Source: an uncultured Gammaproteobacteria bacterium
GTDB taxonomy: Bacteria > Patescibacteriota > Patescibacteriia > Magasanikbacterales > UBA922
DNA length: 64,000 nt
Direction of reading: 5' to 3'
Assembly: GCA_964345045.1 (NCBI GenBank)
Contig: CAYFPM010000003.1
Span: 134,038-198,037 of the forward strand
Part shown: one piece after another, positions 1 to 53,149 of the stretch
Layout: the number at the start of each line of letters is the position of its first letter
How positions within the stretch are numbered: position 1 is the first letter of the stretch
The notes under the pieces: generated by a model
Databases searched by the model: none
Seen by the model: only the letters and a program-made list of their open reading frames with translations
What the model was told of the DNA's origin: nothing
Position numbers and translations under genes: made by a program

Positions 1-3000
1 AGCATCCAAAGCTATTATTTTGTGTTTACCACTGGTGGCATCAAAGATAGTAGCTACTCCCCCACGCACTTTTACATCTCCAAAATTGTTATACTCACTA
101 ACCAAGTAGGCAAACCTGCGCAAATCTTTTTCTTCGTCAGAAGACAAACTCTTGGCATAATCTTCCAAATTATTATTGTGTTCTGCCAAGCCAGTTTTCC
201 AAGTATCAAATTTGCCAGCATAATCCTTTAGAGCTGGGATATCTTTGATATAAGCTTGTTGTACTTTTTCGTTCAAAATTACATCGGCTGTAGCAGTGTG
301 AGACATCCCTAGGTGACTGCCTTTTTCTATTTTTAGGTATTCTGGCAATTTGAATACTTCTCTTACTTCTGGTGCTTTTGCCCCAGCTTCGGCCGGAGAC
401 AAAGACTCTGCGGCTCCGGCAGCAACCCCGGTGGCAGTTGCTCTACTATCTGGCTGGGCAACTTCTTCTAACCCCAAACTCTGCAGTATTTTATGATATT
501 GTTGACTAGTTTCTTCGTTTAAGAAAGAGCCTAATTCTTGTACAGCATGTCTGGTACCATAACCAACGGCTGCCCCAATAGCTCCACCAGCCACAGCTCC
601 TGCATATTTTCTCCAGCCACCTGTAGTTTGTAAATTTTCAATTGTTTCTTGTCGTTCTTCTTGTAGTTTGTGAACATCGCTATGCAAAGCAGCAAGCAAA
701 GCTTCGGCGCGATCATCTTTTCTTCTTATTTCGTATCTTAGTTCATCTATTCTACGCAACACATTTTTGGCTCTTACCGACAAACTTGGGTGTTCTTCCA
801 ACAAACCAAGGTTAAGTGGTGTACGAATAACTCGCATATATTCTTCTAGAGCACTATCCGATGGCCTGGCTGCTTTATCTTTGGCTGCCACACTTATTAC
901 AGTTCCTTCTTTTATATCGTAACCAGATATCAATTCTTCGGCCGTGTTTATTTTATTAACTACTTCTGTTACAAAAGCTTTTTCTTTGGCTTTTTCATCT
1001 CTACTTTCTCCAATTTTATAACCTACATAACCACCAACAGCAGTCATGACTATGGCTCTAGCTTCTGGAAAAGCTGCAAATACAGAACCCATAGTTCCAC
1101 CAACCAACATAGACACTATTATAGTTTTGGCTTTGTTTTCTTCTGCCGAACTTGTTCGCCCTTCTGCTCCTCCTGTTCCGGTTAATGTACCAGTAGGATA
1201 GCCCAAAGCTTTTTCCAAAATTGCTACGAATTTTGGATTTTTCGACATAATGTCGGCAATTTTGTCTCTCTCTTGATTTTGAACGGTGTTAAGTTCTTTG
1301 ACCAAACTTTTTAATTTCTTTTCTTGGTGTTCCAATTCTGCGCCTTCGTATTCGGCGCCAATTTTGCCAGCCAAACCTTCTTTTAGTAAGAAAGCATTTA
1401 CATCCAAATCTTCATCTTTTTTATCATAAGAGTCATAACTCCCTTCTCTTAGACCTTGGCTAAGAAAAGCCGCAATCCCTCTAGAGCTTACCTGTCTAAT
1501 TTTTTCTTCTAGTCTGTGTTGGATTTCCAAAGCATTTTTTTCTTTTACTTCTTCTAGGGCTTCTTGGGTTTTTTCTTTGGCTTGTTTTTTGGCTTTTTCT
1601 TTTCTTTTTCTCAACCAACCAAAAGCTTTGTCTATACCTTTGGTTGCACCGGTAGCAGCTCCTACCAAACCACCAGAGAGGGCTCGTATACCCATACTAC
1701 CAATACCTGTTACCATTGTCATAGCTACACCAGCTCCCATACCTACAGCAGTTGGTGCCAAATTGGCGGCCATTAATTTGGCTCGCTCTAGTATAACCTT
1801 GCGTTTTCTCCACTTGCCTTCAAGCTTATCTTCCAGTGATTGATTTTCTCCATCTCCCAACAAATCATTTAATACTCTTAGTTCTTCTTTTTGCACCCAC
1901 CCACTTAGAGCATTAAAAACTTTTAGATACAATTTTTCTCGCCACTCTTTTTTGAACTCTTCTACAGTGTAACCAAACTTATCCAAATTTCTTTGCAAAC
2001 GTTCTGCTGCCACAGGATCCATATCCATAAATAATCCTTGCAATTCTAATTCTGGATGACTAATATTGCCACGACCGGTCAGAGGGTGGACGAAACACTC
2101 TTCCATTATAGAAGCGAGTCTTTCACGTCCAACTATACTAAAAAGTTCGTTCTCTGGTATATCTATTACTTTTTTCTCTCTTGGTTTTTCTCTTTCTAGT
2201 TGTGGTCTCTTGGCAGTCTCCCACCACATAGAAAACAATTCGGCCAACTCGTTTCCAGACATTTCCTTTACACCGGTATAGTTTTCTACTTGCTCTGGGG
2301 TATACATACTAAAACCGGCAGCAATAAGCGAAATCGGCAAACTATTATTATTGTTTATTTCTTCTGGAAAACTAACGCCATCGTCGTTTGGAGCTACTAC
2401 AACATAACTTTCGGAATCATTTGGGTCTTCGACAATTTTTAATTTTCTAAATTCTCTAAATACCAAACCAGCTCTACCTTCTGATTCGGCATGAGCTTCG
2501 AGAAGATCATGATATTTATCAATTGCCCAGCGATGTACTGTGTTTTCTAATAAACGAGTATCGTTGGTTAGATTATAAAGTGCTTCTAGATTACTTCTAT
2601 CTGCTTCTGGCAAATTTTCAAAATATCTACGGCCATAACGCAAATCTGAACTGTTTATTTTTAATCCTGCTACTTCTATAACATAACCAAGCGCTTCGTC
2701 GGCAGAAGCTCCGGGTGGATCTAGTCTTAGTCTGGCATTTCTATTTAACCAATTTTCAATATTTCTTTTTTGGGTTTCTCTATCCCCCATTTCGTACTGT
2801 CTTTTTGCTTCGTTACGTTTGGCTTCTGCCTCGGCAGAAGTATGCCACCATTCACGAAAGATATCAGCAACCTCGGAAGAATCAACTCCATAAATCGAAG
2901 TCAATGGATCTTGAAAATTTGAAGCTCCATTTCTTAACTCATTTTCTATAACAAGTGGGAGAAATCCACCCAAACCATCGTTGAGGTAATCAATTAAATA

Positions 3001-5766
3001 TTTTGGTTCACTACCAGCTGGAGTTTTTGGATCTATATAAACAGGCAAAGAATCTAAGTATCTCTTGTATGTTTCTATTGCGTCTCTTATTTCTGGGTTG
3101 GCTTCACCTTCTCTACCTTTCAAATGCTCCCCGTCTGCCCATTCTAAAAATGCTTTGGAAATTAAAGAACTGTCCAAACCAAGATTTTTTAAATCTCCTG
3201 GAATAAGTTCTTCTTTTAAGTCTATAAAATAGTATACTAATTCCCCTTTTGAGAATTCTGTACCATCAAACCCAAACTTTGCAATTTTGTTTTTTCCAGC
3301 GTGGTATAGTTCTATATTATTATCAAACCAAGCATTTACATGTGCTCTTTGTTCGGGTGAAATTGTTATTACTTCTTCTTCTATGGAGCCTAAATCATGA
3401 TCCTCGTCATCTACCAGACTCTCTCCAGCAGCAGCCGATTCTGCCGGAGCAGGTTCTGTTGTTTTATCAGCTGCAGAGCCAACATCAGGACGGCTTGCCT
3501 CCGCAGAGGTTCTTTTCCGCCCAGTATCTGCCAAAATTTTATTCTTTTTTTCTTCTACCCACTCTGTGACCAAAGCTTCTGCATCTTCTTTATCAAGTCC
3601 CAAAGCATAATCTTTTGTCCCGTTTTTTTTCCCTTTCTCAAGTGGTGTAATAATAAGAGATTTAAAAATATCTACACTAAGAGTGTCTTTTGTACCTTTT
3701 TGTTTTACAAGGAACTCATTACTGTTATTGTCTATAATAACTTCATATTCTGCTTCTAGATATTCTCTTACCTTGTTTTTCTTTTCTTCTGGGGACAATT
3801 CTTCTCCACCAAAAATCTCTTCTTTCAATGATTTACCCGGCACATGCTCTTGGTAATCCCCACCAGCTTCTACGACTTCTTTTACCCAAATACGAAAAGC
3901 TTTGCTTGCTTCGGCCTGATCTATACCTATTAAATCATCTTCCTGGTTTGTAAACCAGCCAGTACCAATAAAATCAGCTACTTCGGTCACGGTTTGTGCT
4001 CTATTTGTCCCATCTAACCAAAAATCCACTTGTCCATCATCCTTTTTTTCTACCTTAATATTATTATAAAAATAATCAAATAATTTTTGTTTTTCTTCTG
4101 GAGTTATATTTAGTTCTATTTCTTCTGCTTTTTCGTATTCTTTATAATTTGTCTTCCCCTCGGCCACATCTTTGGCCCATTCTCTAAACAAGGCTCCCAC
4201 ATCTACGCCACCTGCTGCTATGGCTTCAGACAAATCACTTGCTGTTTCATCTACACCTTTGCCCTCCCCCTCTTCTCCAAAATGAAACAAAAATTGTCCA
4301 TCCGCAGTTTTTTCTACTTTTACACTTCCATAAAATGCTTTGTATAATCTTTCTTTACTTTCTTCATCTTTGTCGGCCTCAGGGCTGGTAGTGGCAGCTA
4401 CTGCTGCTTCTGCTCCACCATAAGCAGGGTTCAATTTCTTCGCAAATGCTTCTATATTTTCTGCTGCAGCCATCCATCTTTTGCGGTCATAAAGAGACAT
4501 GTAATCTTTATCTTCATATTTTTTATAATCTTTTCCTTCTTCTGATTTTCCATACACAAACTTAAGTTTGCCTACTGTAGCTTTTAAATCATTAATCACC
4601 TTCACTTTGTCAATATTTGTTTCGTTATACAAATCATCAATTCCTTCGTAACCCGAAAAAGCGTCAAAAATTTCTTTGGCTCCTTCAATCTTAGCTATTG
4701 CTTTTTCTATATTTTCTGGAGAACATTCTTCATTGCTTACATCAGTCCATTTTTTAGGGTTATCTATCCCAAAGTTAAAACTATCCAAAGATTCTAAAGT
4801 ATAATGCCATGGTGTTATATATTCTTTATCTTCGTCTTTAAAGTCTTCGTGCAAAGAAGCTACATCAAAATTAATCCCAACTTCGTCAAGTAGTCTAGCG
4901 TCTTTTTCTGTAATTTTTTGAGAAATTTCGTATAAAGTATCTTCTAAGTCAGCATAGTCATCATGGTCTTCACCTTTTTCCTCCATTTCTTTTGAAACTC
5001 TTGTAAATTCTTTTATGTCTTCGGCCAAGTTTCGTATAGCTGAAATTTTATCTTTGTCAGCATTTTTCAAAGCTTTGTATCGGGCGATAAGCTGCTCTGC
5101 ATCATTTTTTTCTGAACCGGATAAATTTTCCGTAATTTGTTCTACTTCACCAATACTAGCTTCCCACTGTGCAGATTGTTCTACAAGCGTAGATAATCTT
5201 TTCAAAGGTTTGGCCAAATTATTTAACAAATCTATACCACTTATCAAAAAGTCATCATCATTTAAACCTTTTTCTAAAAGATCCAATTCTGATTCTTCTA
5301 TTTTTAAATTTTTTTTCAAGGTTTCTTGTACAGTACTCAAAGTTGCCTCTACTTTTTCTCCCTTTTGCTTTTTTTGCTCAGCTTTACCCGAAACTTTTTG
5401 TTCACGCCCTTCCAAAACTTTTTTAGCTTCTCCCATACTTCGCAAAACTTCGTCTGCTTTACTCAACTGTTCAGCCGCATGGCTTTCAAAGGCATCTTTA
5501 TTTCTTTCGGCAACCTGTTTCAATTTTTTTAACTTTTCTCCAACTACACCCAAGTATGTATCCAATTTATCTTTTCTTGCCTTTATCTCTATCAACGCTT
5601 TTTTCTTATCTAATTCTGCATCTAAATCTATCTTTGCAGCTTCAACAGATGCACCTGCCTCTTCTACTGCAGTTTGTAACTCATTTAATTTAGAACCAAA
5701 TTCGGCCCACATTTCTGTCATCTCTGGACCATTTGATGGATTGTTACTTTGACCAGGTTCGGCCAT
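1..5766 (-). CDS. Giant repeat-rich protein, N-terminal >=1,900 aa (partial; 3' end beyond window start)
   Basis: Stop-free minus-strand frame from ATG at 5766..5764 (MAEPGQSNNPSNGPEMTEMWAEF...) to the window edge, translated by eye. It is absent from the ORF track only because no stop lies in the window. Only short shadow ORFs occur on the + strand across 1..5760. The protein has repeated Trp-containing modules (..EWAD.., ..REWW.., ..KEWREK..), coiled-coil-like stretches and Gly-zipper hydrophobic segments (GMGAGVAMTMVTGIGSMG, VSMLVGGTMGSVFAAF). Confidence 0.6.
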   Translation of the reverse strand, partial: MAEPGQSNNPSNGPEMTEMWAEFGSKLNELQTAVEEAGASVEAAKIDLDAELDKKKALIEIKARKDKLDTYLGVVGEKLKKLKQVAERNKDAFESHAAEQLSKADEVLRSMGEAKKVLEGREQKVSGKAEQKKQKGEKVEATLSTVQETLKKNLKIEESELDLLEKGLNDDDFLISGIDLLNNLAKPLKRLSTLVEQSAQWEASIGEVEQITENLSGSEKNDAEQLIARYKALKNADKDKISAIRNLAEDIKEFTRVSKEMEEKGEDHDDYADLEDTLYEISQKITEKDARLLDEVGINFDVASLHEDFKDEDKEYITPWHYTLESLDSFNFGIDNPKKWTDVSNEECSPENIEKAIAKIEGAKEIFDAFSGYEGIDDLYNETNIDKVKVINDLKATVGKLKFVYGKSEEGKDYKKYEDKDYMSLYDRKRWMAAAENIEAFAKKLNPAYGGAEAAVAATTSPEADKDEESKERLYKAFYGSVKVEKTADGQFLFHFGEEGEGKGVDETASDLSEAIAAGGVDVGALFREWAKDVAEGKTNYKEYEKAEEIELNITPEEKQKLFDYFYNNIKVEKKDDGQVDFWLDGTNRAQTVTEVADFIGTGWFTNQEDDLIGIDQAEASKAFRIWVKEVVEAGGDYQEHVPGKSLKEEIFGGEELSPEEKKNKVREYLEAEYEVIIDNNSNEFLVKQKGTKDTLSVDIFKSLIITPLEKGKKNGTKDYALGLDKEDAEALVTEWVEEKKNKILADTGRKRTSAEASRPDVGSAADKTTEPAPAESAAAGESLVDDEDHDLGSIEEEVITISPEQRAHVNAWFDNNIELYHAGKNKIAKFGFDGTEFSKGELVYYFIDLKEELIPGDLKNLGLDSSLISKAFLEWADGEHLKGREGEANPEIRDAIETYKRYLDSLPVYIDPKTPAGSEPKYLIDYLNDGLGGFLPLVIENELRNGASNFQDPLTSIYGVDSSEVADIFREWWHTSAEAEAKRNEAKRQYEMGDRETQKRNIENWLNRNARLRLDPPGASADEALGYVIEVAGLKINSSDLRYGRRYFENLPEADRSNLEALYNLTNDTRLLENTVHRWAIDKYHDLLEAHAESEGRAGLVFREFRKLKIVEDPNDSESYVVVAPNDDGVSFPEEINNNNSLPISLIAAGFSMYTPEQVENYTGVKEMSGNELAELFSMWWETAKRPQLEREKPREKKVIDIPENELFSIVGRERLASIMEECFVHPLTGRGNISHPELELQGLFMDMDPVAAERLQRNLDKFGYTVEEFKKEWREKLYLKVFNALSGWVQKEELRVLNDLLGDGENQSLEDKLEGKWRKRKVILERAKLMAANLAPTAVGMGAGVAMTMVTGIGSMGIRALSGGLVGAATGATKGIDKAFGWLRKRKEKAKKQAKEKTQEALEEVKEKNALEIQHRLEEKIRQVSSRGIAAFLSQGLREGSYDSYDKKDEDLDVNAFLLKEGLAGKIGAEYEGAELEHQEKKLKSLVKELNTVQNQERDKIADIMSKNPKFVAILEKALGYPTGTLTGTGGAEGRTSSAEENKAKTIIVSMLVGGTMGSVFAAFPEARAIVMTAVGGYVGYKIGESRDEKAKEKAFVTEVVNKINTAEELISGYDIKEGTVISVAAKDKAARPSDSALEEYMRVIRTPLNLGLLEEHPSLSVRAKNVLRRIDELRYEIRRKDDRAEALLAALHSDVHKLQEERQETIENLQTTGGWRKYAGAVAGGAIGAAVGYGTRHAVQELGSFLNEETSQQYHKILQSLGLEEVAQPDSRATATGVAAGAAESLSPAEAGAKAPEVREVFKLPEYLKIEKGSHLGMSHTATADVILNEKVQQAYIKDIPALKDYAGKFDTWKTGLAEHNNNLEDYAKSLSSDEEKDLRRFAYLVSEYNNFGDVKVRGGVATIFDATSGKHKIIALDA

Positions 5767-6036
5767 ATATTTTTCGTTAAGAATTTGAATTTTATTATAA
5801 CAAAATTAATCTAAATAACAAAAAATCCAAGCTTAAATTATCTATAACTTGGACTCTTGTTTTTCATAAAAATATTTTTTCAGAAATTAGCTACTCCTAA
5901 TTGCTAAATAGATACTTTTATTTTTGTCGATGTCCCCGGGGCACCGCCTGCATCACACTTTCGTATTCCTTACGATTGTGCAAATTGGCGGTGCCCCTTT
6001 TGGGGAGCTAGCTTAGATCAAGCGCGGGTAGCGCGT

Positions 6037-7503
6037 TCAGGAGGCCTTAGCGACGTTCTTGGCCTGGAGCATCTCGATGGTCTTCTCGTACCACTTGGCG
6101 TCGAGCTTGCCTGCTTGACGCAGCTCATCGACCACGTCGTCGGGGTTGCGCCCGTTGAACTTGTCGCCTCGGACCATCGCCAGACGTAGCGCGTCGAGAT
6201 TGATCTCCTTGTCGGCCTTCTTCTTGGGCTTGGTGTCACCCTTGCCCTTGCCAGCCGGCTTGGAGCCACCCGAGTTGTCACCTCGCTTGTTGCCCTTGCT
6301 GCCGTTCCCGTTGCGGTTGAGGTTCCCCTTGTCGGCCTTGTCGGCCGGCTTGGATCCACCGCTGCCACGACGATCACGCTTGCCGGGCTGCCTACCCTGC
6401 TCGTTCATCTTGTCCACCTGATCCAGCATGCGCCGGAAGGCCGGGTGATTCTCGAGCGCGGCACGCATCTTGGTGTCAATGTCGACACCGAACGCGCCGT
6501 TCGTCGACGCACTCGCGATGGCGCGCCGCTTGTCGTTGGCAGCCTTGACCTTGGCCTGTTCGCGCAACATCTTGCTGATCTCACCAGGCTTCTCGATGAC
6601 CACGATCTCGCCGATGTGGTTCTGCTTGACCAGGTAGCCGTCCGCGTTCTTGAAGGGTCGATTGTCCTTCTCGAACTTGGCGATCTCATCATCGTTGGCC
6701 TGGCGAAGCTCCTTGTCGTACCCGGGAACCCAGGCCCACAAGATCTGGCTCTTCATGCCCTCGAGTACCCGAATCTTGTCCTTGTCATTCTCCTCTCGAG
6801 CTCGCCTGAGCTCCTTCTTGTACGCCTCATTGCCAGCGAAAATTGCCATCTCGCCGGATACCCCCTTGCGGAGCATATCCATGACCGTGAGGGTCTCGAG
6901 GCTGACGTGAGGCTTCTTCTCAGCCTCTGGCTTACCCTCGTTCTCCCTGTCGATCTCGATGTTCATTTCCTCGATCACGCGCTCGTAGGGAGGCACCCAG
7001 GCAGTCCAGTTACCGTTGTCGTTGCGCTGATCGAGCCTCCGAATTTGCAGGGGGGTCATAGCGTAGGCGATCGGGCAAAAAAGCCCGAACGTCTCCGGCG
7101 ACTTCAGAGCCCGGGGGTCATCCTTCGAAAGGATCTCCCCCGATACGTCGTAGAAGACATCGTTGACACCGATGTGGTAGCTGAGCCTAGCCTCGGTCTC
7201 CGGATCGATGAGAGCCGAACGAAGGTTTTTCGCAGCGGCTCCCTGGAGAACTCCCAGAGTTCCCGTGCTACCCGGACCGACGCTCACGATCCCCTTGGCG
7301 GGCATAGCACGTCCCACCGCAACCTTGTAGAACTGCATCAGGTACGTGGTGATGAGAGCGGCATCCCCCTGAGTATGCAGGAGTCCGATGTTCATCAGGA
7401 ACCGCAACTCCCGAACACGCGGCTCGGGGATGACGATCTCGTTCTTCACGGGCAACTGGATGGCGCTGAGGGTCTGGTTGGCGTTGTTGCTGTTGTCGGA
7501 CAT
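6037..7503 (-). CDS. Hypothetical protein encoded in a GC-rich island, with a Gly/Lys-rich basic low-complexity C-terminal segment
   Basis: 488-aa ORF with GC-rich codon usage unlike the rest of the window. A GGAGA Shine-Dalgarno sits 7 nt upstream of the ATG at 7503. The overlapping + ORF 6445..7566 has antisense-like L/V/D/R composition. No recognisable catalytic motif. Confidence 0.6.
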   Translation of the reverse strand: MSDNSNNANQTLSAIQLPVKNEIVIPEPRVRELRFLMNIGLLHTQGDAALITTYLMQFYKVAVGRAMPAKGIVSVGPGSTGTLGVLQGAAAKNLRSALIDPETEARLSYHIGVNDVFYDVSGEILSKDDPRALKSPETFGLFCPIAYAMTPLQIRRLDQRNDNGNWTAWVPPYERVIEEMNIEIDRENEGKPEAEKKPHVSLETLTVMDMLRKGVSGEMAIFAGNEAYKKELRRAREENDKDKIRVLEGMKSQILWAWVPGYDKELRQANDDEIAKFEKDNRPFKNADGYLVKQNHIGEIVVIEKPGEISKMLREQAKVKAANDKRRAIASASTNGAFGVDIDTKMRAALENHPAFRRMLDQVDKMNEQGRQPGKRDRRGSGGSKPADKADKGNLNRNGNGSKGNKRGDNSGGSKPAGKGKGDTKPKKKADKEINLDALRLAMVRGDKFNGRNPDDVVDELRQAGKLDAKWYEKTIEMLQAKNVAKAS

Positions 7504-7890
7504 TTGGAATTCTCCACTCGGCTAGACCCATCTGGTCAGCCGGCAGTTTGTGCGGCGCCCTATTGAGGGCAGCCGAGTGTTTTCGGTTGAAGGGCGAATT
7601 GCACACAAGGATCTTGCGATCAAGTGTGCCAAAGGGAAAAAATTGGTTATATATTTTCTCCCAACAAGCAAACGCTTATCCGCTGGGAGCTTTTGTAGAC
7701 TACAATTGTAGCCACCAAAAGTTCCCAGCGAATTTCGCTAATCTAAGCTAAATTTTAAAGAACAAATAACTTGCTCCAAAAGTACCTTTTTGTACTTTAT
7801 AGAACAGAGAATTATAGCACAAAAAAGCGCTTTTGTCAAGTATCCCCCTTACAAGACAAAAGCGCTTTTTAAAAAATATTTACCAAAAAA

Positions 7891-11990: not shown

Positions 11991-12387
11991 GGGGATGACA
12001 GGGTTCGATAGACGGACCAAGGTACCTATAAGTGCATGTCGAGGAGGTGAGCTTTCCTCGTAAATACCGGCTCACACTTGATACGTGCAAACGCTATCAG
12101 CCGAATGAAGACTAGCTTGGCTCGCGCCTTTGCTATGCCAGCATTCGCACCTGTTGCCGCTTAATTGCCGCAACCATCGCACCCACGATACTCGATAGTG
12201 GTTCTGCGGTGTTAACTTATCGAGTGTAGGTGTATATACACCTGCCATTATGCACCGAAGTTCTCTGCAGGTAACCAATTACCATTTTTGACACTTTTTT
12301 GTTGGTAGTTGGTATCCTAAAGTGTCTAAACATGTAGATCTTCTAGCTACCCCGCTCTACACCCGGGTTCAAATCCCGGCATCTCCA
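11991..12387 (+). ncRNA. ssrA: tmRNA (ssrA), tag reading frame ANAISRMKTSLARAFAMPAFAPVAA*
   Basis: 5' end GGGGAUGACAGGGUUCGAUAGACGG pairs with the 3' acceptor CAUCUCC, followed by discriminator A. The tRNA-like T-arm is GGGUUCAAAUCCCGG. The resume codon GCA at 12087 lies ~97 nt from the 5' end, and the frame ends ..VAA then TAA at 12162..12164. Position directly after smpB fits. CCA is not encoded. Confidence 0.85.
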
Positions 12388-12462
12388 CGAAAAATGGCGC
12401 AGCCATTCAACAAAACCCAGCACGAAAGTGGTGGTTTTTTGATAAAAAATAAAGTCAAACAA

Positions 12463-12491
12463 TTGACAAAAACGCTAAATTATGCGATACT
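12463..12491 (+). promoter_or_regulatory. Sigma70-like promoter candidate (TTGACA-17-GATACT) upstream of infC
   Basis: TTGACA at 12463..12468 and a -10-like hexamer at 12486..12491. Confidence 0.35.
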
Positions 12492-12516
12492 TGTAGCAAT
12501 CAATAATATTCTAAAC

Positions 12517-13062
12517 ATGAGAATCTCTAGAAAAAAAAGACCAGAAAAACCGATTATCCCCCACTACAGGATAAACGAAAGAATAAACGTACCAGAAGTA
12601 CGAATTTTGGACTTGGAAGGTAACAATCTAGGAGTAATGCCCACCAACGAAGCCTTGGCAAAAGCCAAAGAACAAGAACTAGACCTAGTAGAAGTAAACC
12701 CAAAGGCACAACCTCCGGTTTGTAAAATAATCGATTTTACCAACTTCAAATACCAAAAAGAAAAAGAAGCCAAAAAACAAAAGGCCAAATCTCATGTAAG
12801 CGACACCAAAGGAATCCGCCTATCTGTAAGAATCGGTGACCACGATATGGAAATTCGCAAAAAACAAGCAGAAAAATTCCTAGATAGAGGTGACAAGATA
12901 AAAGTAGAAGTAATCCTAAGAGGTAGAGAAAACGCCAAACCCTCTATGGCCTTTGATGTAATCGAAAAATTTTACCAACTACTAGTAGAATCCAAAGGGG
13001 TAAAATACGAACAAGCCCCAGCCAAACAAGGAAACAAAGTTACCGCCCTAATTACCAAGTAA
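12517..13062 (+). CDS. infC: Translation initiation factor IF-3
   Basis: The ORF-track ORF 12322..13062 starts inside the tmRNA. The IF-3 homology (RINERINVPEVRILDLEGNNLGV...DLVEVNPKAQPPVCKIIDF...) begins near the ATG at 12517 (MRISRKKRPEK...). A non-ATG start nearby cannot be excluded, as is common for infC. Confidence 0.85.
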   Translation: MRISRKKRPEKPIIPHYRINERINVPEVRILDLEGNNLGVMPTNEALAKAKEQELDLVEVNPKAQPPVCKIIDFTNFKYQKEKEAKKQKAKSHVSDTKGIRLSVRIGDHDMEIRKKQAEKFLDRGDKIKVEVILRGRENAKPSMAFDVIEKFYQLLVESKGVKYEQAPAKQGNKVTALITK

Positions 13063-47712: not shown

Positions 47713-48249
47713 TTAAGCTTCCTTTTTTTCTTCAGTTTTTTCTGCTGGTTTTTCTTCTTTCACCTCGCCAGAGCCTTCGGCGTCGGCGGGTTCTTTTGCT
47801 TCTTCGGTAGGAGCTTCAGAAGCTTCGGCTTCTTCTGTAGCTTTGGCTTCAGCAGCAGCTTTTTCGGCCTCTTCTGCAGCTTTGGCTTCTTCCTCTGCAG
47901 CCTTGGCAGCTTCGGCAGCTTGTTTTTTGGCTTCTTCGTCTGCAGCTTTTTTCTCATCAATCTTAGCTTGTCTTTTTTTGCTAATAGCGACTGATTTCTT
48001 TTTGTTGCCGGAAACGATTCCTTGGCTTAGTAGTAAATTGTGAACTGTCTCAGATGCTTGGGCACCATTTTTGATCAATTCTTTTATTTTTTCTACTTTT
48101 AGATCTATAACTTTTGGATTGGCTACTGGATTGTAAATTCCTAGTATTTCCAAAGCACGGCCTTGGGTATCTTTTATTTTTTCACTGGCAACCAAGCGAT
48201 AAGACGGGCTTTTTTTCTTACCAATTCTTTGTAATCTAATCATTAACAT
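47713..48249 (-). CDS. rpsP: 30S ribosomal protein S16 with a ~95-aa Ala/Glu/Lys-rich C-terminal tail
   Basis: N-terminal MLMIRLQRIGKKKSPSYRLVASEKIKDTQGRALEILGIYNP is canonical S16. The tail is low-complexity (AEEEAKAAEEAEKAAAEAKA..) and contains the EPADAEGSGEVKEE repeat unit. Confidence 0.88.
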   Translation of the reverse strand: MLMIRLQRIGKKKSPSYRLVASEKIKDTQGRALEILGIYNPVANPKVIDLKVEKIKELIKNGAQASETVHNLLLSQGIVSGNKKKSVAISKKRQAKIDEKKAADEEAKKQAAEAAKAAEEEAKAAEEAEKAAAEAKATEEAEASEAPTEEAKEPADAEGSGEVKEEKPAEKTEEKKEA

Positions 48250-49223: not shown

Positions 49224-49571
49224 ATGACTACCGATGAGCAACAAGCTCGTATCAAAAAAAGACTGCGTCATTTGAGGCTGCAACAACGAAACGGTCCCGC
49301 TCCAGAATCTGCCTCTCCAGAAACCATAGCAACCATTTCGGATGCCCTAGACCATGCAGTCGCAGTAACCGTGGAACGAAGCCTGGCAGAACATGGACGG
49401 ACGTCCCCATACGGTTCTGCCCAAGAGACCATGGAAGAAATCCTCGACGAATTGGCCGAGGAACCCGCCGACGCCGAAGGCTCTGGCGTGGTGAAAGAAG
49501 AACGAGATCCTACCGCCGATCTGGACGACGAATATCGTCGGCAACCTTCAAGTGGGGGAAAGAAAAAGTGA
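49224..49571 (+). CDS. Hypothetical protein (115 aa) carrying the EPADAEGSGVVKEE repeat unit
   Basis: ORF in the moderate-GC block. Contains a 42-nt segment nearly identical to one in rpsP and related to one in smc. Confidence 0.4.
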   Translation: MTTDEQQARIKKRLRHLRLQQRNGPAPESASPETIATISDALDHAVAVTVERSLAEHGRTSPYGSAQETMEEILDELAEEPADAEGSGVVKEERDPTADLDDEYRRQPSSGGKKK

Positions 49572-50074: not shown

Positions 50075-53000
50075 CTATTTAGACTCCTCTACCACCTTCT
50101 CTGCTTGCTCTAGCTTGACCGAAAGCAGATGACTAATCCCGTCGTTACCCATAGTTACTCCGTAGAGTGCATCGGTAGCGTGCATGGTAGCGCGGTTGTG
50201 AGTAATAAGAATAAATTGAGAACTCTTGGCCAACTCTTTGAGAATCTTCGTAAATCTTAGAGTGTTGGCTTCGTCTAGAGCGGCCTCTACCTCGTCTAGT
50301 ATTACAAACGGTGGTGGATTGGTATGGAGGATAGCACAGATAAGAGCAATCGAAGTCATCGTGCGCTCTCCACCAGAGAGAGCTGCCAAATTTTTGATTT
50401 TTTTGCCTGGCGGACAAGCATTAACCTCGATCCCAGTCAGAATCTTCTTTCTTCTTTTTTTCTTTGGCTCATCTTCCAGTTCTTCATCTTCTTCACTCTC
50501 TTCTTTTACCACGCCAGAGCTTTCAGCGGAGGCGGGTGCTTCCACCCCATATACTTCAACTAAATCTGCTTTACCTCCTTCAAACAACAGACTAAAGTAT
50601 CTCTGAAATTCTTTTTTGATTTCTTTAAAACCTTTGGCGCGGCGTTTTTTCATTATCTCATCTAGCTCTACTACCAACTTTTCCAAATCTTTCATAGCTT
50701 TTTCTAGGTCGTCTAGCTGGCTGGTTAGGCCTTCGTGACGTTCGGCTGTTTCTTTGTACTCGGCTACGACTTCTTCGTCAATCCCACCAATAAGAGAAAG
50801 TTTGTATTTTAATTTTTGAATTTGGGTTTGCAATTCTTCTAGTTTTTCTAATTCAACTAATGGCGGTTGTCTTTTTACAATCGATTCAATTGAAAAATGT
50901 AATTCTTGATAAACTTCGTTTAACAAGTCTTCTTGCTTGGTTTCTATTTTGGCCAGAGATACTCTACCATCGTTTCGTTTGTTACTTATGTCGTTAAGTT
51001 TGTTTTGCTCGGCTTGCATAGCATCTTGCAAAGCAAAAATTCTTTCTTTTTTCTTTTCTTCTTCTTCATTAAACTCGGAAATTTTATTTTTAATTCCCAA
51101 AATTTTGTTCTCTAACTCGTTTATTTTTTTGCCCAAATCATCTTTTTGCACAGAGATATCTTTCATAGCTGCCGAGTAGTCGCTCTCGCTCATGGTAGAA
51201 AGATTCATTTCTTGTTCCAAAGAAGCAATTTCCGAATCAATTTCTTTTTTTTGATCACTAATGTATTGTTGTTTTTTTAATTCTACTTCGGTGTTGGTTT
51301 GCAAATCACGAAGCAAATCTTGCATTCTTTCATAATCAATTTCGGTTCTGTCCAATTCTCTTTTTGTTTCTTCTATTTTTTCGGTGTGATCCATTAACTC
51401 TCCCTGCATCATATGTGGCGCATGAGCTTGTGAAAAACTAAGTCCGGTAGTTCTTTTTCTACGGAAACCACCTTTCATACTACCACTAGTTTCTAATATG
51501 TCCCCGTCTAGGGTTACCATGCGGATTCTGCCAATCCCGATTTCTCTAGCCACATCTATACTCTCTACAATAATAGTGTTGCCAAAAACATAAGAAAAAA
51601 TATTTTCAAATCTTTTGTCAAAACTGGCCAAGTCTGTAGCCAAACCATGCACCCCCGGATGAGCCAAGTATCTGTCTATATCGTGTGGTACAAATCTAGG
51701 TTTAATTTTGCTAATTGGCAAAAATGTGGCAACTCCCAATTGATTATCACGAAGATATCTAATTCCTTGTTTGGCCACTTCGTCGTCGGCTACTACTACA
51801 GAAGACAGATGTGCTCCTGCCGCTACGTCCATAGCCAATTGATACTTCTCGGCCACTTCGGCTAGTTGAGCTACTGCTCCAAAAACTCTGCCAAATCTAT
51901 TTTGCTCTTCTAGTATAGCTTGTACTGCCCGGAGGCCGGTAAGCTGAAAAAAGTTTTGCTCACTTTTGGCAGTAGCGAGCGAGGACTCCAAACTAGATAA
52001 TTTGGATTTCAATTCTGTTTTGTTTATACCAAGCTCTTCTACTTCGCTTTTTTTACCAGCAATTTCTGTATGCAAATTTTGCAAGTGATCATTTACTTGC
52101 TTTAATTCTTTTTCTATTTTTTGTTGTTCGGTTTTAAGAGAAGTTATTTTGTTTTCTAGCCAACTAATATTGTGCTTGCCGGCTTTGCTGTACTCTACTT
52201 GCATCTTGCCGGTAAGAGCAGCATGATCTCTTTCCAAAGCATTTTTTTCTTGAGTTAATTCTTGAAAAGAACTTTGAAGTTCATTGTAAATTTCTTGCCG
52301 AGAAGATTCTTTGGCCAGATCAGATAATTCTAATTGAATTTTTTCTAACTTACCTTGCGAATCTGTATAATCACTTTCGATTGTTTTTAGGTTGTTTTGA
52401 ATTTCGTCTAGCTGAGTTTGATTGTGACTCCACAAAGTAGCGTAGTAAGACTCTTGAGATTCGCGCAAAGTGTTTTCTACTTCGTGTCTTTCTTCCAGCT
52501 TTTTTACTTGTCGAGACAAACTCTTTAGGCGAGGAGAAACTTCGTTCAAAAGGGCTTCGGCTTGGGTAATATTTTCTTTGGTTCGAGAAAGTTTGAGAAT
52601 TGCTTGATGACGTTTGATCTGGAATTCTTTTATACCAAAAGCTTCATCAAAAAAATCTTTTCTCTCGGCCGGACTTTGAAGTAGCATTTTGTCTATCATC
52701 CCCTGCCCTACCACACTATAAGATCCTTGGCCAAACTGGGCCTTGGCCAAAAGTAACTGCAAATCCAACAATCTAACCTGGTGGCCATTGATAATATATT
52801 CACCATCTCCCTCACGATAAACCTTTCTTTCTATAACCAATTCTTCTTGGTCTATTGGCAATGTAGCATCACTATTATCTATAATCATTTTTACACTGGC
52901 AAATCCCATTTTTCCTTTGGCAGCCGAACCACCAAATATAATGTCTTCGCTCTTCTTACCACGCAGCATTTTCATGCTTTGCTCACCCAGCACCCAGCGA

Positions 53001-53149
53001 ATAGCATCGGCCACATTGGATTTGCCACTACCGTTTGGCCCTACTATAGCCGTAATGCTTTGGGAGGCCTTGGTACCAGGCATAAATGCCAAAACAGTCT
53101 TTTCGGCAAAAGACTTGAATCCTTGTATTTCTAGACTCTTTAGGTACAT
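50075..53149 (-). CDS. smc: Chromosome partition protein SMC (with an in-frame acidic insertion near the C-terminal head)
   Basis: N-terminal Walker A (GPNGSGKSNVADAI), long coiled coils, hinge region, and the C-terminal signature ..LSGGERTMTSIALICAIL.. with Walker B FVILDEVEAALD. An ..APASAESSGVVKEESEEDEELEDEPKKKRRKK.. insertion lies before the signature motif. Confidence 0.92.
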   Translation of the reverse strand: MYLKSLEIQGFKSFAEKTVLAFMPGTKASQSITAIVGPNGSGKSNVADAIRWVLGEQSMKMLRGKKSEDIIFGGSAAKGKMGFASVKMIIDNSDATLPIDQEELVIERKVYREGDGEYIINGHQVRLLDLQLLLAKAQFGQGSYSVVGQGMIDKMLLQSPAERKDFFDEAFGIKEFQIKRHQAILKLSRTKENITQAEALLNEVSPRLKSLSRQVKKLEERHEVENTLRESQESYYATLWSHNQTQLDEIQNNLKTIESDYTDSQGKLEKIQLELSDLAKESSRQEIYNELQSSFQELTQEKNALERDHAALTGKMQVEYSKAGKHNISWLENKITSLKTEQQKIEKELKQVNDHLQNLHTEIAGKKSEVEELGINKTELKSKLSSLESSLATAKSEQNFFQLTGLRAVQAILEEQNRFGRVFGAVAQLAEVAEKYQLAMDVAAGAHLSSVVVADDEVAKQGIRYLRDNQLGVATFLPISKIKPRFVPHDIDRYLAHPGVHGLATDLASFDKRFENIFSYVFGNTIIVESIDVAREIGIGRIRMVTLDGDILETSGSMKGGFRRKRTTGLSFSQAHAPHMMQGELMDHTEKIEETKRELDRTEIDYERMQDLLRDLQTNTEVELKKQQYISDQKKEIDSEIASLEQEMNLSTMSESDYSAAMKDISVQKDDLGKKINELENKILGIKNKISEFNEEEEKKKERIFALQDAMQAEQNKLNDISNKRNDGRVSLAKIETKQEDLLNEVYQELHFSIESIVKRQPPLVELEKLEELQTQIQKLKYKLSLIGGIDEEVVAEYKETAERHEGLTSQLDDLEKAMKDLEKLVVELDEIMKKRRAKGFKEIKKEFQRYFSLLFEGGKADLVEVYGVEAPASAESSGVVKEESEEDEELEDEPKKKRRKKILTGIEVNACPPGKKIKNLAALSGGERTMTSIALICAILHTNPPPFVILDEVEAALDEANTLRFTKILKELAKSSQFILITHNRATMHATDALYGVTMGNDGISHLLSVKLEQAEKVVEESK

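What the first reader, a model, noticed from the sequence alone, without database searches (positions are those of the whole stretch)
5930..7640. Compositionally foreign GC-rich (~60%) single-gene island in an AT-rich genome
A ~1.7-kb segment shifts abruptly from the ~35% GC background to ~60% GC. It contains one 488-aa gene (6037..7503, minus) with GC3-rich codon usage, its own Shine-Dalgarno, and a Gly/Lys-rich basic C-terminal region (..GKRDRRGSGGSKPADKADKGNLNRNGNGSKGNKRGDNSGGSKPAGKGKGDTKPKKKADK..). This is the signature of very recent horizontal acquisition from a high-GC donor (an actinobacterial or viral source is possible), or of an assembly chimera. The protein has no motif I can place; a capsid or structural protein is among the speculative options.
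Basis: seen in the sequence. Interest (0 to 1): 0.6.

Follow-up and report, generated by a model that had tools for sequence, protein, structure and literature searches.

The report
GC-rich orphan gene cassette, RNA-framed
A real 1.9-kb GC-rich single-gene cassette sits in an AT-rich candidate-phyla-radiation (Magasanikbacteria-like) bacterial genome. Its GC-richness and its RNA hairpin "frame" are conserved in the only three relatives known, so it is neither an assembly error nor a simple fresh import from a high-GC donor.

Summary
Window 5931-7640 is 59% GC against 38.5% elsewhere, and the 488-aa ORF (6037..7503, minus) has GC3 0.81 against 0.19-0.36 in host genes.

- The protein is an orphan: no Pfam, NCBIfam, PHROG, PADLOC or PDB match, and only three relatives among 1.8 billion representative proteins.
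- All three relatives show the same anatomy in independent assemblies: a GC3-rich gene (0.83-0.90) with abrupt AT-richer flanks. This rules out a chimera.
- No homolog lies in a GC-rich genome, which argues against a recent high-GC donor.
- The two nearest sibling genomes lack the cassette at the syntenic site, so it is gained or lost as a unit.

The unit is a complete transcription unit: a consensus sigma-70 promoter, a highly structured leader, a Shine-Dalgarno site, the ORF, a conserved ~70-nt 3' hairpin and a terminator-like hairpin. A 22-bp 5' hairpin covaries, and a long-range helix pairs the leader with the 3' UTR in all three loci that have both ends.

My best reading (confidence about 0.45) is an autonomous, moron-like cassette. 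Its GC-rich, structure-framed mRNA encodes a basic-tailed, probably nucleic-acid-binding protein. The function is unknown.

The parts
7811..7839 (-). Perfect consensus sigma-70 promoter: TTGACA, 17 nt, TATAAT, with an extended -10 TG.
   Evidence: 12 of 12 matches. L004 has a near-identical promoter, TTGACAAATGCCTTTTTTTGTGATATAAT, about 40 nt upstream of the same conserved motif.
7750..7764 (-). Conserved A/U-rich leader motif TGTTCTTTAAAATTT, immediately 5' of helix P1.
   Evidence: Present in the window, L002 and L004. No other copy in the window.
7736..7751 (-). 5' strand of the long-range helix P1, which pairs with 6007-6025.
   Evidence: duplex of -21.1 kcal/mol, with 0 of 2000 shuffles as stable. 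Equivalent helices occur in L002 and L004, where cognate partners beat non-cognate ones. The 10-nt core was also found as inverted repeat I24.
7678..7733 (-). P2: long 5' hairpin with 28-nt arms. The basal 22 bp are conserved, and the apex tolerates insertions of 0, about 55 and about 190 nt in the different loci.
   Evidence: (I1); 92% of cells paired, 7 of 22 pairs changed on both sides among 3 sequences, 0 of 500 shuffles as high.
7504..7677 (-). Remainder of the structured leader, GC-rich from about 7625, with the Shine-Dalgarno GGAG at 7512-7515.
   Evidence: (leader MFE -103 kcal/mol, z = -7.4).
6037..7503 (-). 488-aa orphan protein gene with GC3 0.81. It has a conserved core (aa ~12-370), a Gly/Lys/Arg-rich tail (aa 372-434, nt 6202-6390) and a window-specific three-helix C-terminal domain (aa 435-488).
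6007..6025 (-). 3' strand of the long-range helix P1, starting 14 nt after the stop codon.
5933..6006 (-). P3: three-tier 3' hairpin of about 74 nt. The abrupt GC-to-AT boundary lies at its foot.
   Evidence: -44.6 kcal/mol, z = -7.2. Equivalent hairpins directly after the gene in L001, L002 and L004 have z = -5.6 to -7.4.
5820..5853 (-). Terminator-like hairpin (TCCAAGC...GCTTGGA) followed by a U-run, separating the cassette from the promoter of the giant downstream gene (5821..5794).
   Evidence: Read directly from the sequence; promoter. The loop is too long for the terminator scan. L004 has an analogous hairpin plus T-run at about 2350-2390.

Best explanation
The island is an autonomous, self-contained expression cassette. 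In anatomy it is 'moron-like': its own promoter, one gene, its own terminator-like hairpin, and foreign composition. It belongs to a very rare family (four loci known). The window's host is Magasanikbacteria-like; the other three lie on short AT-richer metagenome contigs whose hosts are unidentified.

The cassette is gained or lost as a unit, and here it sits between the DUF5663 gene and a giant coiled-coil protein gene. Its GC-richness is an intrinsic, conserved property of the transcribed body (proximal leader + ORF + 3' hairpin), not the fading trace of a recent high-GC donor.

Proposed mechanism (inferred):
- A consensus promoter drives a transcript whose two ends are brought together by a 13-16-bp leader/3'-UTR helix (P1).
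- Next to P1 lie a 22-25-bp 5' hairpin (P2) and a ~70-nt 3' hairpin (P3).
- Together with the GC-rich, over-structured coding region, this makes a nuclease-resistant and/or RNase III-processed mRNA, analogous to rRNA or phage T7 processing stalks.
- The mRNA encodes a protein with a Zn-ribbon-like CxxC...C...C motif (degenerate in the window copy) and a polycationic disordered tail, most likely a nucleic-acid-binding protein that may act on its own RNA.

Shown: the composition, the coding status, recurrence in 4 assemblies, absence in siblings, the promoter and SD, and the conserved, covarying P1/P2/P3.
Inferred: that the structures act at the RNA level, that selection on RNA keeps the GC high, and what the protein does.
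For: (a) All four family members have GC3 0.81-0.90 and GC2 about 0.40, whatever the flank GC (0.26-0.51), at 27-45% pairwise identity.
(b) No homolog in any GC-rich genome, phage or plasmid.
(c) A sharp compositional boundary lies inside a co-inherited unit. The AT-rich promoter, motif, P1 and P2 are more conserved (84% mean column identity in the P2 arms) than the protein (27-35%).
(d) P2: 7 of 22 pairs carry double compensatory changes among 3 sequences, 92% of cells are paired, 0 of 500 shuffles reach this, and slid controls collapse.
(e) P1: -17 to -21 kcal/mol in 3 of 3 loci, p <= 0.0005, with cognate partners more stable than non-cognate ones.
(f) P3 is present in 4 of 4 loci, z = -5.6 to -7.4. 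Leaders have z = -5.8 to -7.4.
(g) The sense strand folds better than the antisense strand in 10 of 10 hairpin or leader elements, as expected for RNA.
(h) The coding sequence folds more stably than synonymous-codon shuffles: z = -3.95, -4.80 and -4.81 in 3 of 4 members, against -1.2 to -2.2 for host genes.
(i) Consensus promoter and SD are present.
(j) The cassette is absent at the syntenic site in L005 and L006.
(k) No recombinase or phage gene lies in the roughly 12 kb upstream that was scanned with Pfam; the 5.8 kb downstream is one giant coiled-coil ORF.
Against: - Only four members exist, and only three have both ends, so the covariation statistics rest on very few sequences.
- Inverted repeats that covary are also expected for DNA sites bound by one protein, such as terminal or recombination repeats.
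- Selection on mRNA structure strong enough to hold GC3 about 50 points above the genome has no precedent and is hard to reconcile with weak selection in small-genome symbionts.
- L001 shows no excess folding of the coding sequence (z = -1.4).
- There is no expression data.
- The protein function is a guess based on Cys motifs and a basic tail. The AF2 models are uninformative (pLDDT 40-43).
- Other, unrelated GC-rich genes lie at comparable positions in related MAGs (L010, L012). Ordinary import of GC-rich DNA therefore does happen in this neighbourhood.
Confidence: 0.45

Rival explanations
1. Repeated, relatively recent horizontal import from an unsampled GC-rich reservoir (a host bacterium, virus or plasmid of the community) into a permissive intergenic hotspot. 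On this view the high GC is simply not yet ameliorated. This is a refined version of the first reader's idea.
For: The cassette is absent from siblings L005 and L006 at the syntenic site. Codon usage is extreme and donor-like. Unrelated GC-rich genes occupy similar positions in L012 (downstream of Wzz) and L010, one with a MopE metal-binding motif.
Against: Zero homologs occur in GC-rich contexts among 15 billion proteins, whereas 4 occur in AT-rich contexts. The four copies are deeply diverged, which would require at least 4 separate imports from a diverse but invisible reservoir. The AT-rich consensus promoter, leader motif and P2 are conserved with the cassette. L002 and L004 share a homologous downstream gene.
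Confidence: 0.22
2. A DNA-level mobile or invertible element. P1 would be a pair of inverted repeats, P2 and P3 would be DNA hairpin or cruciform ends, and the orphan Zn-ribbon protein would be its own novel transposase, recombinase or homing nuclease.
For: A single gene is flanked by inverted repeats and subterminal hairpins. Presence/absence varies among relatives. The position immediately upstream of a large coiled-coil protein gene recurs in the window, L002 and L004. Relatives carry a CxxC...C...C motif around a conserved LDxRNxxG.
Against: No transposase, integrase, HNH or RuvC domain was detected by Pfam, NCBIfam, PHROGs or PADLOC. Conserved sequence (motif, promoter, P3) extends outside the inverted repeats, so they are not terminal. 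There is no second copy or solo end in 64 kb. The family is vanishingly rare for a transposon. The orientation is the same in all three loci. G-U pairs and the sense-over-antisense stability bias favour RNA. No target-site duplication was seen.
Confidence: 0.15
3. Assembly chimera or misjoin that placed a foreign 1.7-kb GC-rich fragment into the contig.
For: Both junctions are compositionally abrupt. The gene occurs on one contig only in the protein collection.
Against: AT-rich host sequence continues on both sides in syntenic order. The same gene-plus-hairpin-plus-AT-flank anatomy appears in three other assemblies from different projects. The conserved leader spans the GC/AT transition.
Confidence: 0.02

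Closest known systems
Phage 'morons' (autonomous single-gene transcription units with foreign composition; Hendrix and colleagues, cited from my own knowledge)
   Same: One gene with its own sigma-70 promoter and terminator-like hairpin, inserted between two resident genes, with nucleotide composition sharply different from the neighbours and present or absent among relatives.
   Different: It is not in a prophage: no phage genes were found nearby and there are no PHROG hits. The composition contrast is conserved across deeply diverged copies. The conserved, covarying RNA frame (P1/P2/P3) is not a moron feature.
RNase III processing stalks of rRNA operons and phage T7 early mRNAs
   Same: A strong promoter, a body richer in GC than the AT-rich genome, a long-range helix joining sequences 5' and 3' of the mature RNA, and dsRNA hairpins of at least 20 bp at the ends.
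   Different: The enclosed RNA is clearly protein-coding (GC3/GC2 contrast, conserved ORF). P1 is only 13-16 bp. No cleavage data exist, and there is no Rfam match.
Classical horizontally acquired genomic islets or ORFan islands
   Same: Atypical GC and codon usage, an orphan protein, and absence from sibling genomes.
   Different: There is no identifiable donor lineage, no tRNA/att/integrase association, host-type promoter and SD, and no amelioration despite 27-45% protein divergence among copies.
IS200/IS605-type hairpin-ended elements and integron attC cassettes
   Same: A single ORF with structured, imperfect-palindrome DNA at or after its end.
   Different: There is no Y1/TnpB or integrase domain and no R''/R' (GTTRRRY) core. 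The cassette carries its own promoter, is not multi-copy, and its inverted repeats are internal to the conserved unit.
Gag-like proteins that bind and package their own UTR-framed mRNA (Arc, PEG10)
   Same: A protein with a polybasic region, with Cys motifs in relatives, is encoded by an mRNA with conserved structured 5' and 3' UTRs.
   Different: The resemblance is conceptual only. No sequence or fold similarity could be shown.

Membership tests
Recently acquired high-GC genomic island | Composition and codon usage deviate from the host genome. | tested here: met
   59% against 38.5% GC; GC3 0.81 against 0.19-0.36; inverted synonymous codon choice.
Recently acquired high-GC genomic island | Absent from close relatives at the syntenic site. 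| tested here: met
   L005 and L006 go directly from DUF5663/Wzz to the giant gene, with only a small 60-66-aa ORF between.
Recently acquired high-GC genomic island | Homologs exist in a donor lineage of matching (high) GC. | tested here: not met
   Only 3 relatives among 1.84 billion representatives, all on short contigs with AT-richer flanks. None in the GTDB representatives, IMG/VR, phages or plasmids.
Recently acquired high-GC genomic island | Mobility hallmarks: integrase or transposase, a tRNA or tmRNA 3'-end target, flanking direct repeats. | tested here: not met
   Neighbours are DUF5663, Wzz, unknowns and IF3. The tmRNA gene is 4.3 kb away with host genes between. No convincing flanking direct repeat was found.
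Assembly chimera | The junctions are unique to one assembly and not reproducible. | tested here: not met
   The same anatomy is found in L001, L002 and L004 from other assemblies.
Assembly chimera | A coverage break or a lack of junction-spanning reads. | not testable with these tools
   No read data are available.
Phage moron | Own promoter and own terminator flanking a single gene. | tested here: met
   Promoter 7839..7811. Hairpin plus U-run at 5820-5853, seen in the sequence. The same layout occurs in L004.
Phage moron | Located within a prophage or phage genome. | tested here: not met
   No phage genes were found in the flanks, and there is no phage or IMG/VR homolog.
Integron gene cassette | An attC site with R''/L''-L'/R' cores (RYYYAAC...GTTRRRY), a promoterless ORF and an intI nearby. 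| tested here: not met
   The 3' hairpin lacks the core motifs. The cassette has its own promoter. No integrase was detected in the neighbours scanned.
IS200/IS605, TnpB or other insertion sequence | A recognisable transposase or nuclease domain. | tested here: not met
   Pfam, NCBIfam, PHROGs and PADLOC give no hit for any of the 4 members.
IS200/IS605, TnpB or other insertion sequence | Multiple copies or solo ends in the genome. | tested here: inconclusive
   No second copy of the leader motif in the 64-kb window. The rest of the genome is not available.
Invertible DNA segment (hix/Hin type) | Inverted repeats flanking the segment, a serine or tyrosine recombinase, and both orientations observed. 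| tested here: not met
   Inverted repeats are present, but there is no recombinase domain and the orientation is the same in all three loci.
RNase III-type processing stalk | A long-range helix pairing 5' and 3' flanks of the RNA, plus a dsRNA hairpin of at least 20 bp. | tested here: met
   P1 is 13-16 bp in 3 of 3 loci. P2 is 22-25 bp with covariation.
RNase III-type processing stalk | Actual endonucleolytic cleavage in the stem. | not testable with these tools
   This needs 5'/3'-end mapping or an in vitro assay.
Any Rfam RNA family | A covariance-model match. | tested here: not met
   No gathering-level hit in the island, and only chance-level hits at E<=1.

The most novel reading that the evidence does not exclude
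The cassette could make an RNA, or an RNA-protein particle, meant to work outside the normal AT-rich translational economy of the cell. One version: an mRNA framed and protected by P1/P2/P3, bound by its own polybasic protein, and delivered by the episymbiotic CPR cell into a GC-rich host bacterium. Its GC-rich codon usage (AAG 98%, TAC 100%) would be the native usage there. That would be a bacterial analogue of Arc/PEG10-type self-mRNA transfer, or of T-DNA genes adapted to the recipient. A milder version: this is the first protein-coding gene whose GC content is actively held about 20 points (about 50 points at GC3) above its genome by selection on mRNA structure.
Probability: 0.05. Interest if true: 0.95.

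Novelty: new variant of a known kind. Interest (0 to 1): 0.62.

Why it matters
If the GC-richness is actively maintained, this is a natural counter-example to the rule that foreign composition marks recent transfer and then ameliorates. It would also be a rare case of a bacterial mRNA enclosed by a covarying 5'-3' helix and terminal hairpins. That gives a tractable handle on RNA stability and processing in CPR bacteria, where almost nothing is known.

The protein is a true orphan, with 4 loci among 15 billion proteins, and probably binds nucleic acid. The position of the cassette next to giant surface-type proteins in episymbionts makes a role in host interaction conceivable.

If instead it is a repeated import, it reveals an unsampled GC-rich gene reservoir and an insertion hotspot in Magasanikbacteria and Uhrbacteria genomes.

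Tried and rejected
Protein identification:
- Pfam, PHROGs, NCBIfam and PADLOC scans of all four members gave only chance-level hits.
- PDB sequence and profile searches found nothing.
- AlphaFold2, alone and with the 4-sequence alignment, gave pLDDT 40 and 43. A Foldseek search of the PDB with that model was meaningless, with best E = 0.7.

Searches for more family members:
- Word-indexed homolog searches, run three times (the last two with profiles, the third of the tail-trimmed core), returned only the window's own protein and P0003.
- GTDB-representative and IMG/VR scans with peptide patterns found none.
- tblastn against phages and plasmids found none.
- A DNA-pattern scan of IMG/VR for the leader motif gave 3 chance hits with no GC-rich body and no P2.

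RNA analyses that failed or were dropped:
- Rfam in gathering and E-value mode gave no family.
- RNAalifold on a MAFFT alignment of the 3' hairpins failed because the two subgroups are too diverged to align automatically. I folded each one singly instead.
- RNAduplex on whole leaders gave meaningless extended duplexes. I redid it on short segments.
- Whole-CDS folding with shuffles timed out and was replaced by 150-nt windows.

Ideas considered and rejected:
- The long antisense ORF (6445..7566, +) as a second gene. Rejected because an open antisense frame is the automatic result of avoiding TTA/CTA/TCA codons, and its extent is not conserved in L001, L002 or L004.
- A CCHC 'zinc knuckle' on the reverse strand of the L001 leader. 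I judged it a chance match.
- Homology between the window's giant downstream protein and the L004 downstream protein. It was not detectable, although the L002 and L004 downstream proteins are homologous.

Literature searches on CPR GC-rich islands and on Magasanikbacteria found nothing relevant.
Full report
OBSERVATION. The composition profile shows an abrupt rise from about 0.31-0.37 GC to 0.57-0.63 between about 5930 and 7640. The segment 5931-7640 is 59.2% GC and the rest of the window is 38.5%. The ORF 6037..7503 (-) is 488 aa. Its GC1/GC2/GC3 are 0.60/0.39/0.81, while 18 host ORFs have GC3 0.19-0.36 and a similar GC2. Synonymous choice is inverted: AAG 98% against host AAA 82%, GAG 94% against GAA 79%, TAC 100%, ATC 85%. 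This period-3 pattern, together with intact homologous ORFs elsewhere, shows it is a genuine coding gene. GGAG lies 8 nt upstream of the ATG. The Gly/Lys/Arg-rich segment is aa 372-434 (net charge +12). A 54-aa helical domain follows it, and that domain is the only confidently modelled part of the protein.

HOST AND CONTEXT. The window carries a tmRNA gene and tRNAs and giant ORFs: a 4525-aa ORF and an ORF of more than 1922 aa that runs off the window start and begins at 5766. Its IF3 is 69% identical to that of a Candidatus Magasanikbacteria MAG, and the next best hits are Magasanikbacteria/Uhrbacteria-type MAGs. The host is therefore a CPR/Patescibacteria bacterium. The local gene order, all on the minus strand, is: giant coiled-coil protein, island, DUF5663 (107 aa), Wzz-like, a 356-aa protein, a membrane protein, a 154-aa protein. 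tmRNA and IF3 then follow on the plus strand. No recombinase or phage gene was detected in these neighbours.

THE PROTEIN IS AN ORPHAN. It gives no significant match in Pfam, PHROGs, NCBIfam, PADLOC or the PDB, whether searched as a single sequence or as a profile. An exhaustive HMMER scan of 1.84 billion cluster representatives returned the window's own protein and just three relatives:
- P0001 is the window's own protein. It was called 66 residues too short, because conservation with the homologs starts at residue ~12.
- P0002 is 46% identical.
- P0003 is 27% identical.
- P0004 is a fragment. Its full-length version was recovered on L004 by the metagenome scan.
Nothing turned up in the GTDB representatives, IMG/VR, phages or plasmids. 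Relatives share a conserved core that includes a CxxC-x6-8-C-x-LDxRNxxG-x6-C motif and a second CGxC motif. The window copy has lost all but one of these cysteines. All members end in a polycationic, low-complexity tail of variable composition. AlphaFold2 models were uninformative (pLDDT 40 and 43), and a Foldseek search gave nothing.

THE SAME ANATOMY RECURS. All relatives sit on short metagenome contigs: L001 from an ENA assembly, L002 from a Logan assembly, and L003/L004 from Hainich groundwater (0.2 um fraction). Each contig shows a GC-rich gene followed by a long hairpin and then an abrupt drop to AT-richer sequence. GC3 is 0.81, 0.87, 0.90 and 0.83 in the four genes and GC2 is 0.39-0.40. 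Flank GC ranges from 0.26 to 0.51, and pairwise protein identity is only 27-45%. Four independent assemblies with different flanks exclude a chimera. The four copies are deeply diverged, none has ameliorated, and no copy occurs in a GC-rich genome despite far better sampling of such genomes. Together these points argue against a recent import from an actinobacterial-type donor.

PRESENCE/ABSENCE. In the two closest representative genomes the syntenic site has no island. In L006, Wzz is followed after 193 bp by a 1441-aa E/K-rich giant protein. In L005, the DUF5663 gene is followed after 416 bp by a 1451-aa giant protein. Both intergenic stretches hold only a small 60-66-aa ORF. The cassette is therefore gained or lost as a unit. 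In L002 and L004 it also lies directly upstream of a coiled-coil protein gene, and those two downstream proteins are homologous to each other (E = 3e-6). They are not detectably homologous to the window's giant protein. The upstream neighbour in L004, read by eye as an AAA-type ATPase gene and not scanned, differs from the window's.

A COMPLETE, STRUCTURE-FRAMED TRANSCRIPTION UNIT. A perfect extended-10 consensus promoter lies at 7839..7811. L004 has an almost identical one at the same distance from a conserved A/U-rich motif, TGTTCTTTnAAAATTT. Three structural elements follow.

(i) P2 is a long 5' hairpin (window 7678-7733, I1). Its basal 22 bp are conserved in the window, L002 and L004, while its apex carries 0, about 55 or about 190 extra nt. 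On the trimmed arms, 92% of cells pair and 7 of 22 pairs changed on both sides among only three sequences. No shuffle out of 500 reached this, and slid registers collapse to 32-49% pairing.

(ii) P1 is a long-range helix. It pairs the leader just 5' of P2 (7736-7751) with the 3' UTR (6007-6025) across about 1.7 kb. Duplex energies are -21.1, -20.8 and -17.2 kcal/mol in the three loci (p <= 0.0005 against shuffles). Cognate partners are more stable than non-cognate ones, and the sequences show an A-U to G-C exchange and a paired 1-nt deletion.

(iii) P3 is a three-tier hairpin of 65-75 nt placed 0-4 nt after the 3' strand of P1 in the three loci that have P1 (L001 lacks its 5' end), with the same architecture but divergent sequence in all four. 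Its energy is -38 to -45 kcal/mol and z = -5.6 to -7.4.

The whole leaders fold with z = -5.8 to -7.4. In all 10 hairpin or leader elements the sense strand folds better than the antisense strand. This is expected for RNA, where G-U pairs are tolerated, and not for symmetric duplex-DNA sites. The coding regions also fold more stably than synonymous-codon-shuffled versions that keep the protein and the codon usage. The z-scores are -3.95, -1.42, -4.80 and -4.81, against -1.2 to -2.2 for three host genes. A hairpin with a U-run at 5820-5853 separates the cassette from the giant gene's own promoter (5821..5794). No Rfam family matches.

INTERPRETATION. The key fact is a sharp compositional boundary inside a co-inherited unit. 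The AT-rich promoter, motif, P1 and P2 are better conserved among loci than the protein. Yet the proximal leader, the ORF and P3 stay at 60-64% GC in hosts of different GC. This favours an intrinsic, maintained GC-richness. My best guess for the cause is selection on a very stable, end-protected and/or RNase III-processed mRNA, analogous to rRNA and T7 processing stalks. In that case the protein's Cys motifs and basic tail suggest that it binds nucleic acid, possibly its own RNA. I give this reading about 0.45.

The rivals are as follows.
- Repeated import from an unsampled GC-rich reservoir into a hotspot (0.22). This is supported by unrelated GC-rich genes at comparable positions in L012 and L010, one of which carries MopE motifs.
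- A DNA-level mobile or invertible element whose orphan protein is its own enzyme (0.15).
- An assembly chimera (0.02).

Anatomically the closest named concept is the phage 'moron' (cited from my own knowledge), but the cassette is not in a prophage, and morons have no conserved RNA frame. The integron attC, IS200/IS605 and Hin-type inversion models each fail at least one defining feature that I tested.

VERDICT. The compositional island is real, reproducible and unusual. It is a rare, orphan, autonomous gene cassette of CPR-type genomes, with conserved GC-richness and a covarying RNA frame. It is neither an artefact nor a simple fresh high-GC import. Its function is unknown. The main limits are the tiny family (four loci, three with both ends), the lack of expression data and the lack of a usable protein model.

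Noticed in passing
window 47752-47806 and 49448-49502: A 55-nt inverted repeat (87% complementary; the 35-nt core has 1 mismatch) flanks a 1.64-kb stretch that includes the window's only other stretch above 50% GC (0.51-0.54 at 48.3-49.1 kb). That stretch holds only small ORFs, plus a promoter-like TTGACA-17-TATATT read by eye near 49.15 kb. The repeat encodes the same C-terminal peptide, PADAEGSG(E/V)VKEE, on two ORFs: one whose N-terminus resembles ribosomal protein S16, with a long A/E/K-rich extension (47713..48249, -), and ORF 49224..49571 (+). A similar peptide occurs in a large ORF that reads like an SMC protein (50075..53149). It could be an invertible or duplicated segment.
   Followed up: partly
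L012 254-1450 (-); L010 715-2217 (-) and 2414-3370 (-); L009 200-1300: Related Magasanikbacteria/Uhrbacteria-type MAGs carry other, unrelated GC-rich segments (0.60-0.74 against 0.46-0.47) within about 5-8 kb of infC. L012 has a 369-aa membrane-anchored coiled-coil protein right downstream of the Wzz-like gene, with its own TTGACA-17-TATAGT promoter. L010 has a MopE-motif lipoprotein and an OMP-like protein. L009 has a GC-rich stretch with no long ORF. This may be an insertion hotspot for GC-rich DNA.
   Followed up: partly
L005 4590-4775 (-) and L006 4385-4565 (-): Both sibling genomes have a small lysine-rich ORF of 60-66 aa, predicted coiled-coil, immediately upstream of the giant protein gene. 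The window has no counterpart; the GC-rich cassette occupies that position.
   Followed up: no
L004 ~752-933 (apex of hairpin P2); L005 ~4860-4930: The apex of the conserved 5' hairpin in L004 carries an insertion of about 190 nt that is GC-rich and itself a nested palindrome. L005 has a long palindrome with a GC-rich core in the empty-site intergenic region. Both look like small palindromic (MITE-like) insertions.
   Followed up: no
window 7305-7503 (N-terminal 66 codons of the ORF): The public protein record for this gene (P0001, 422 aa) starts at Met67. Conservation with the three homologs begins at residue ~12, and a GGAG precedes the ATG at 7503, so the database start is probably 66 codons too late.
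   Followed up: yes
L003 1-130: The 786-bp Hainich contig that gave P0004 matches L004 only from about nt 130 onward. Its first ~130 nt are unrelated, so it is a low-coverage chimeric contig or a rearranged or truncated second copy of the gene.
   Followed up: no
L001 1-134, reverse strand: The GC-rich proximal leader of the L001 copy encodes, on the opposite strand, a perfect C-x2-C-x4-H-x4-C 'zinc knuckle' pattern (CWHCGGTPHRRVEC). I judged this a chance match in GC-rich sequence, because antisense ORFs are not conserved among the loci.
   Followed up: partly
window 12322-12550: The mechanical ORF for IF3 (12322..13062) overlaps the tmRNA gene (11991-12390). The IF3 domains start at residue 84, so the true start is downstream.
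   Followed up: no
window 27969-41546 (-) and 1-5766 (-): The window holds a 4525-aa ORF and an E/K-rich coiled-coil ORF of more than 1922 aa that runs off the window start. The sibling genomes L005 and L006 carry giant E/K-rich proteins of 1451 and 1441 aa at the position syntenic to the second one.
   Followed up: no
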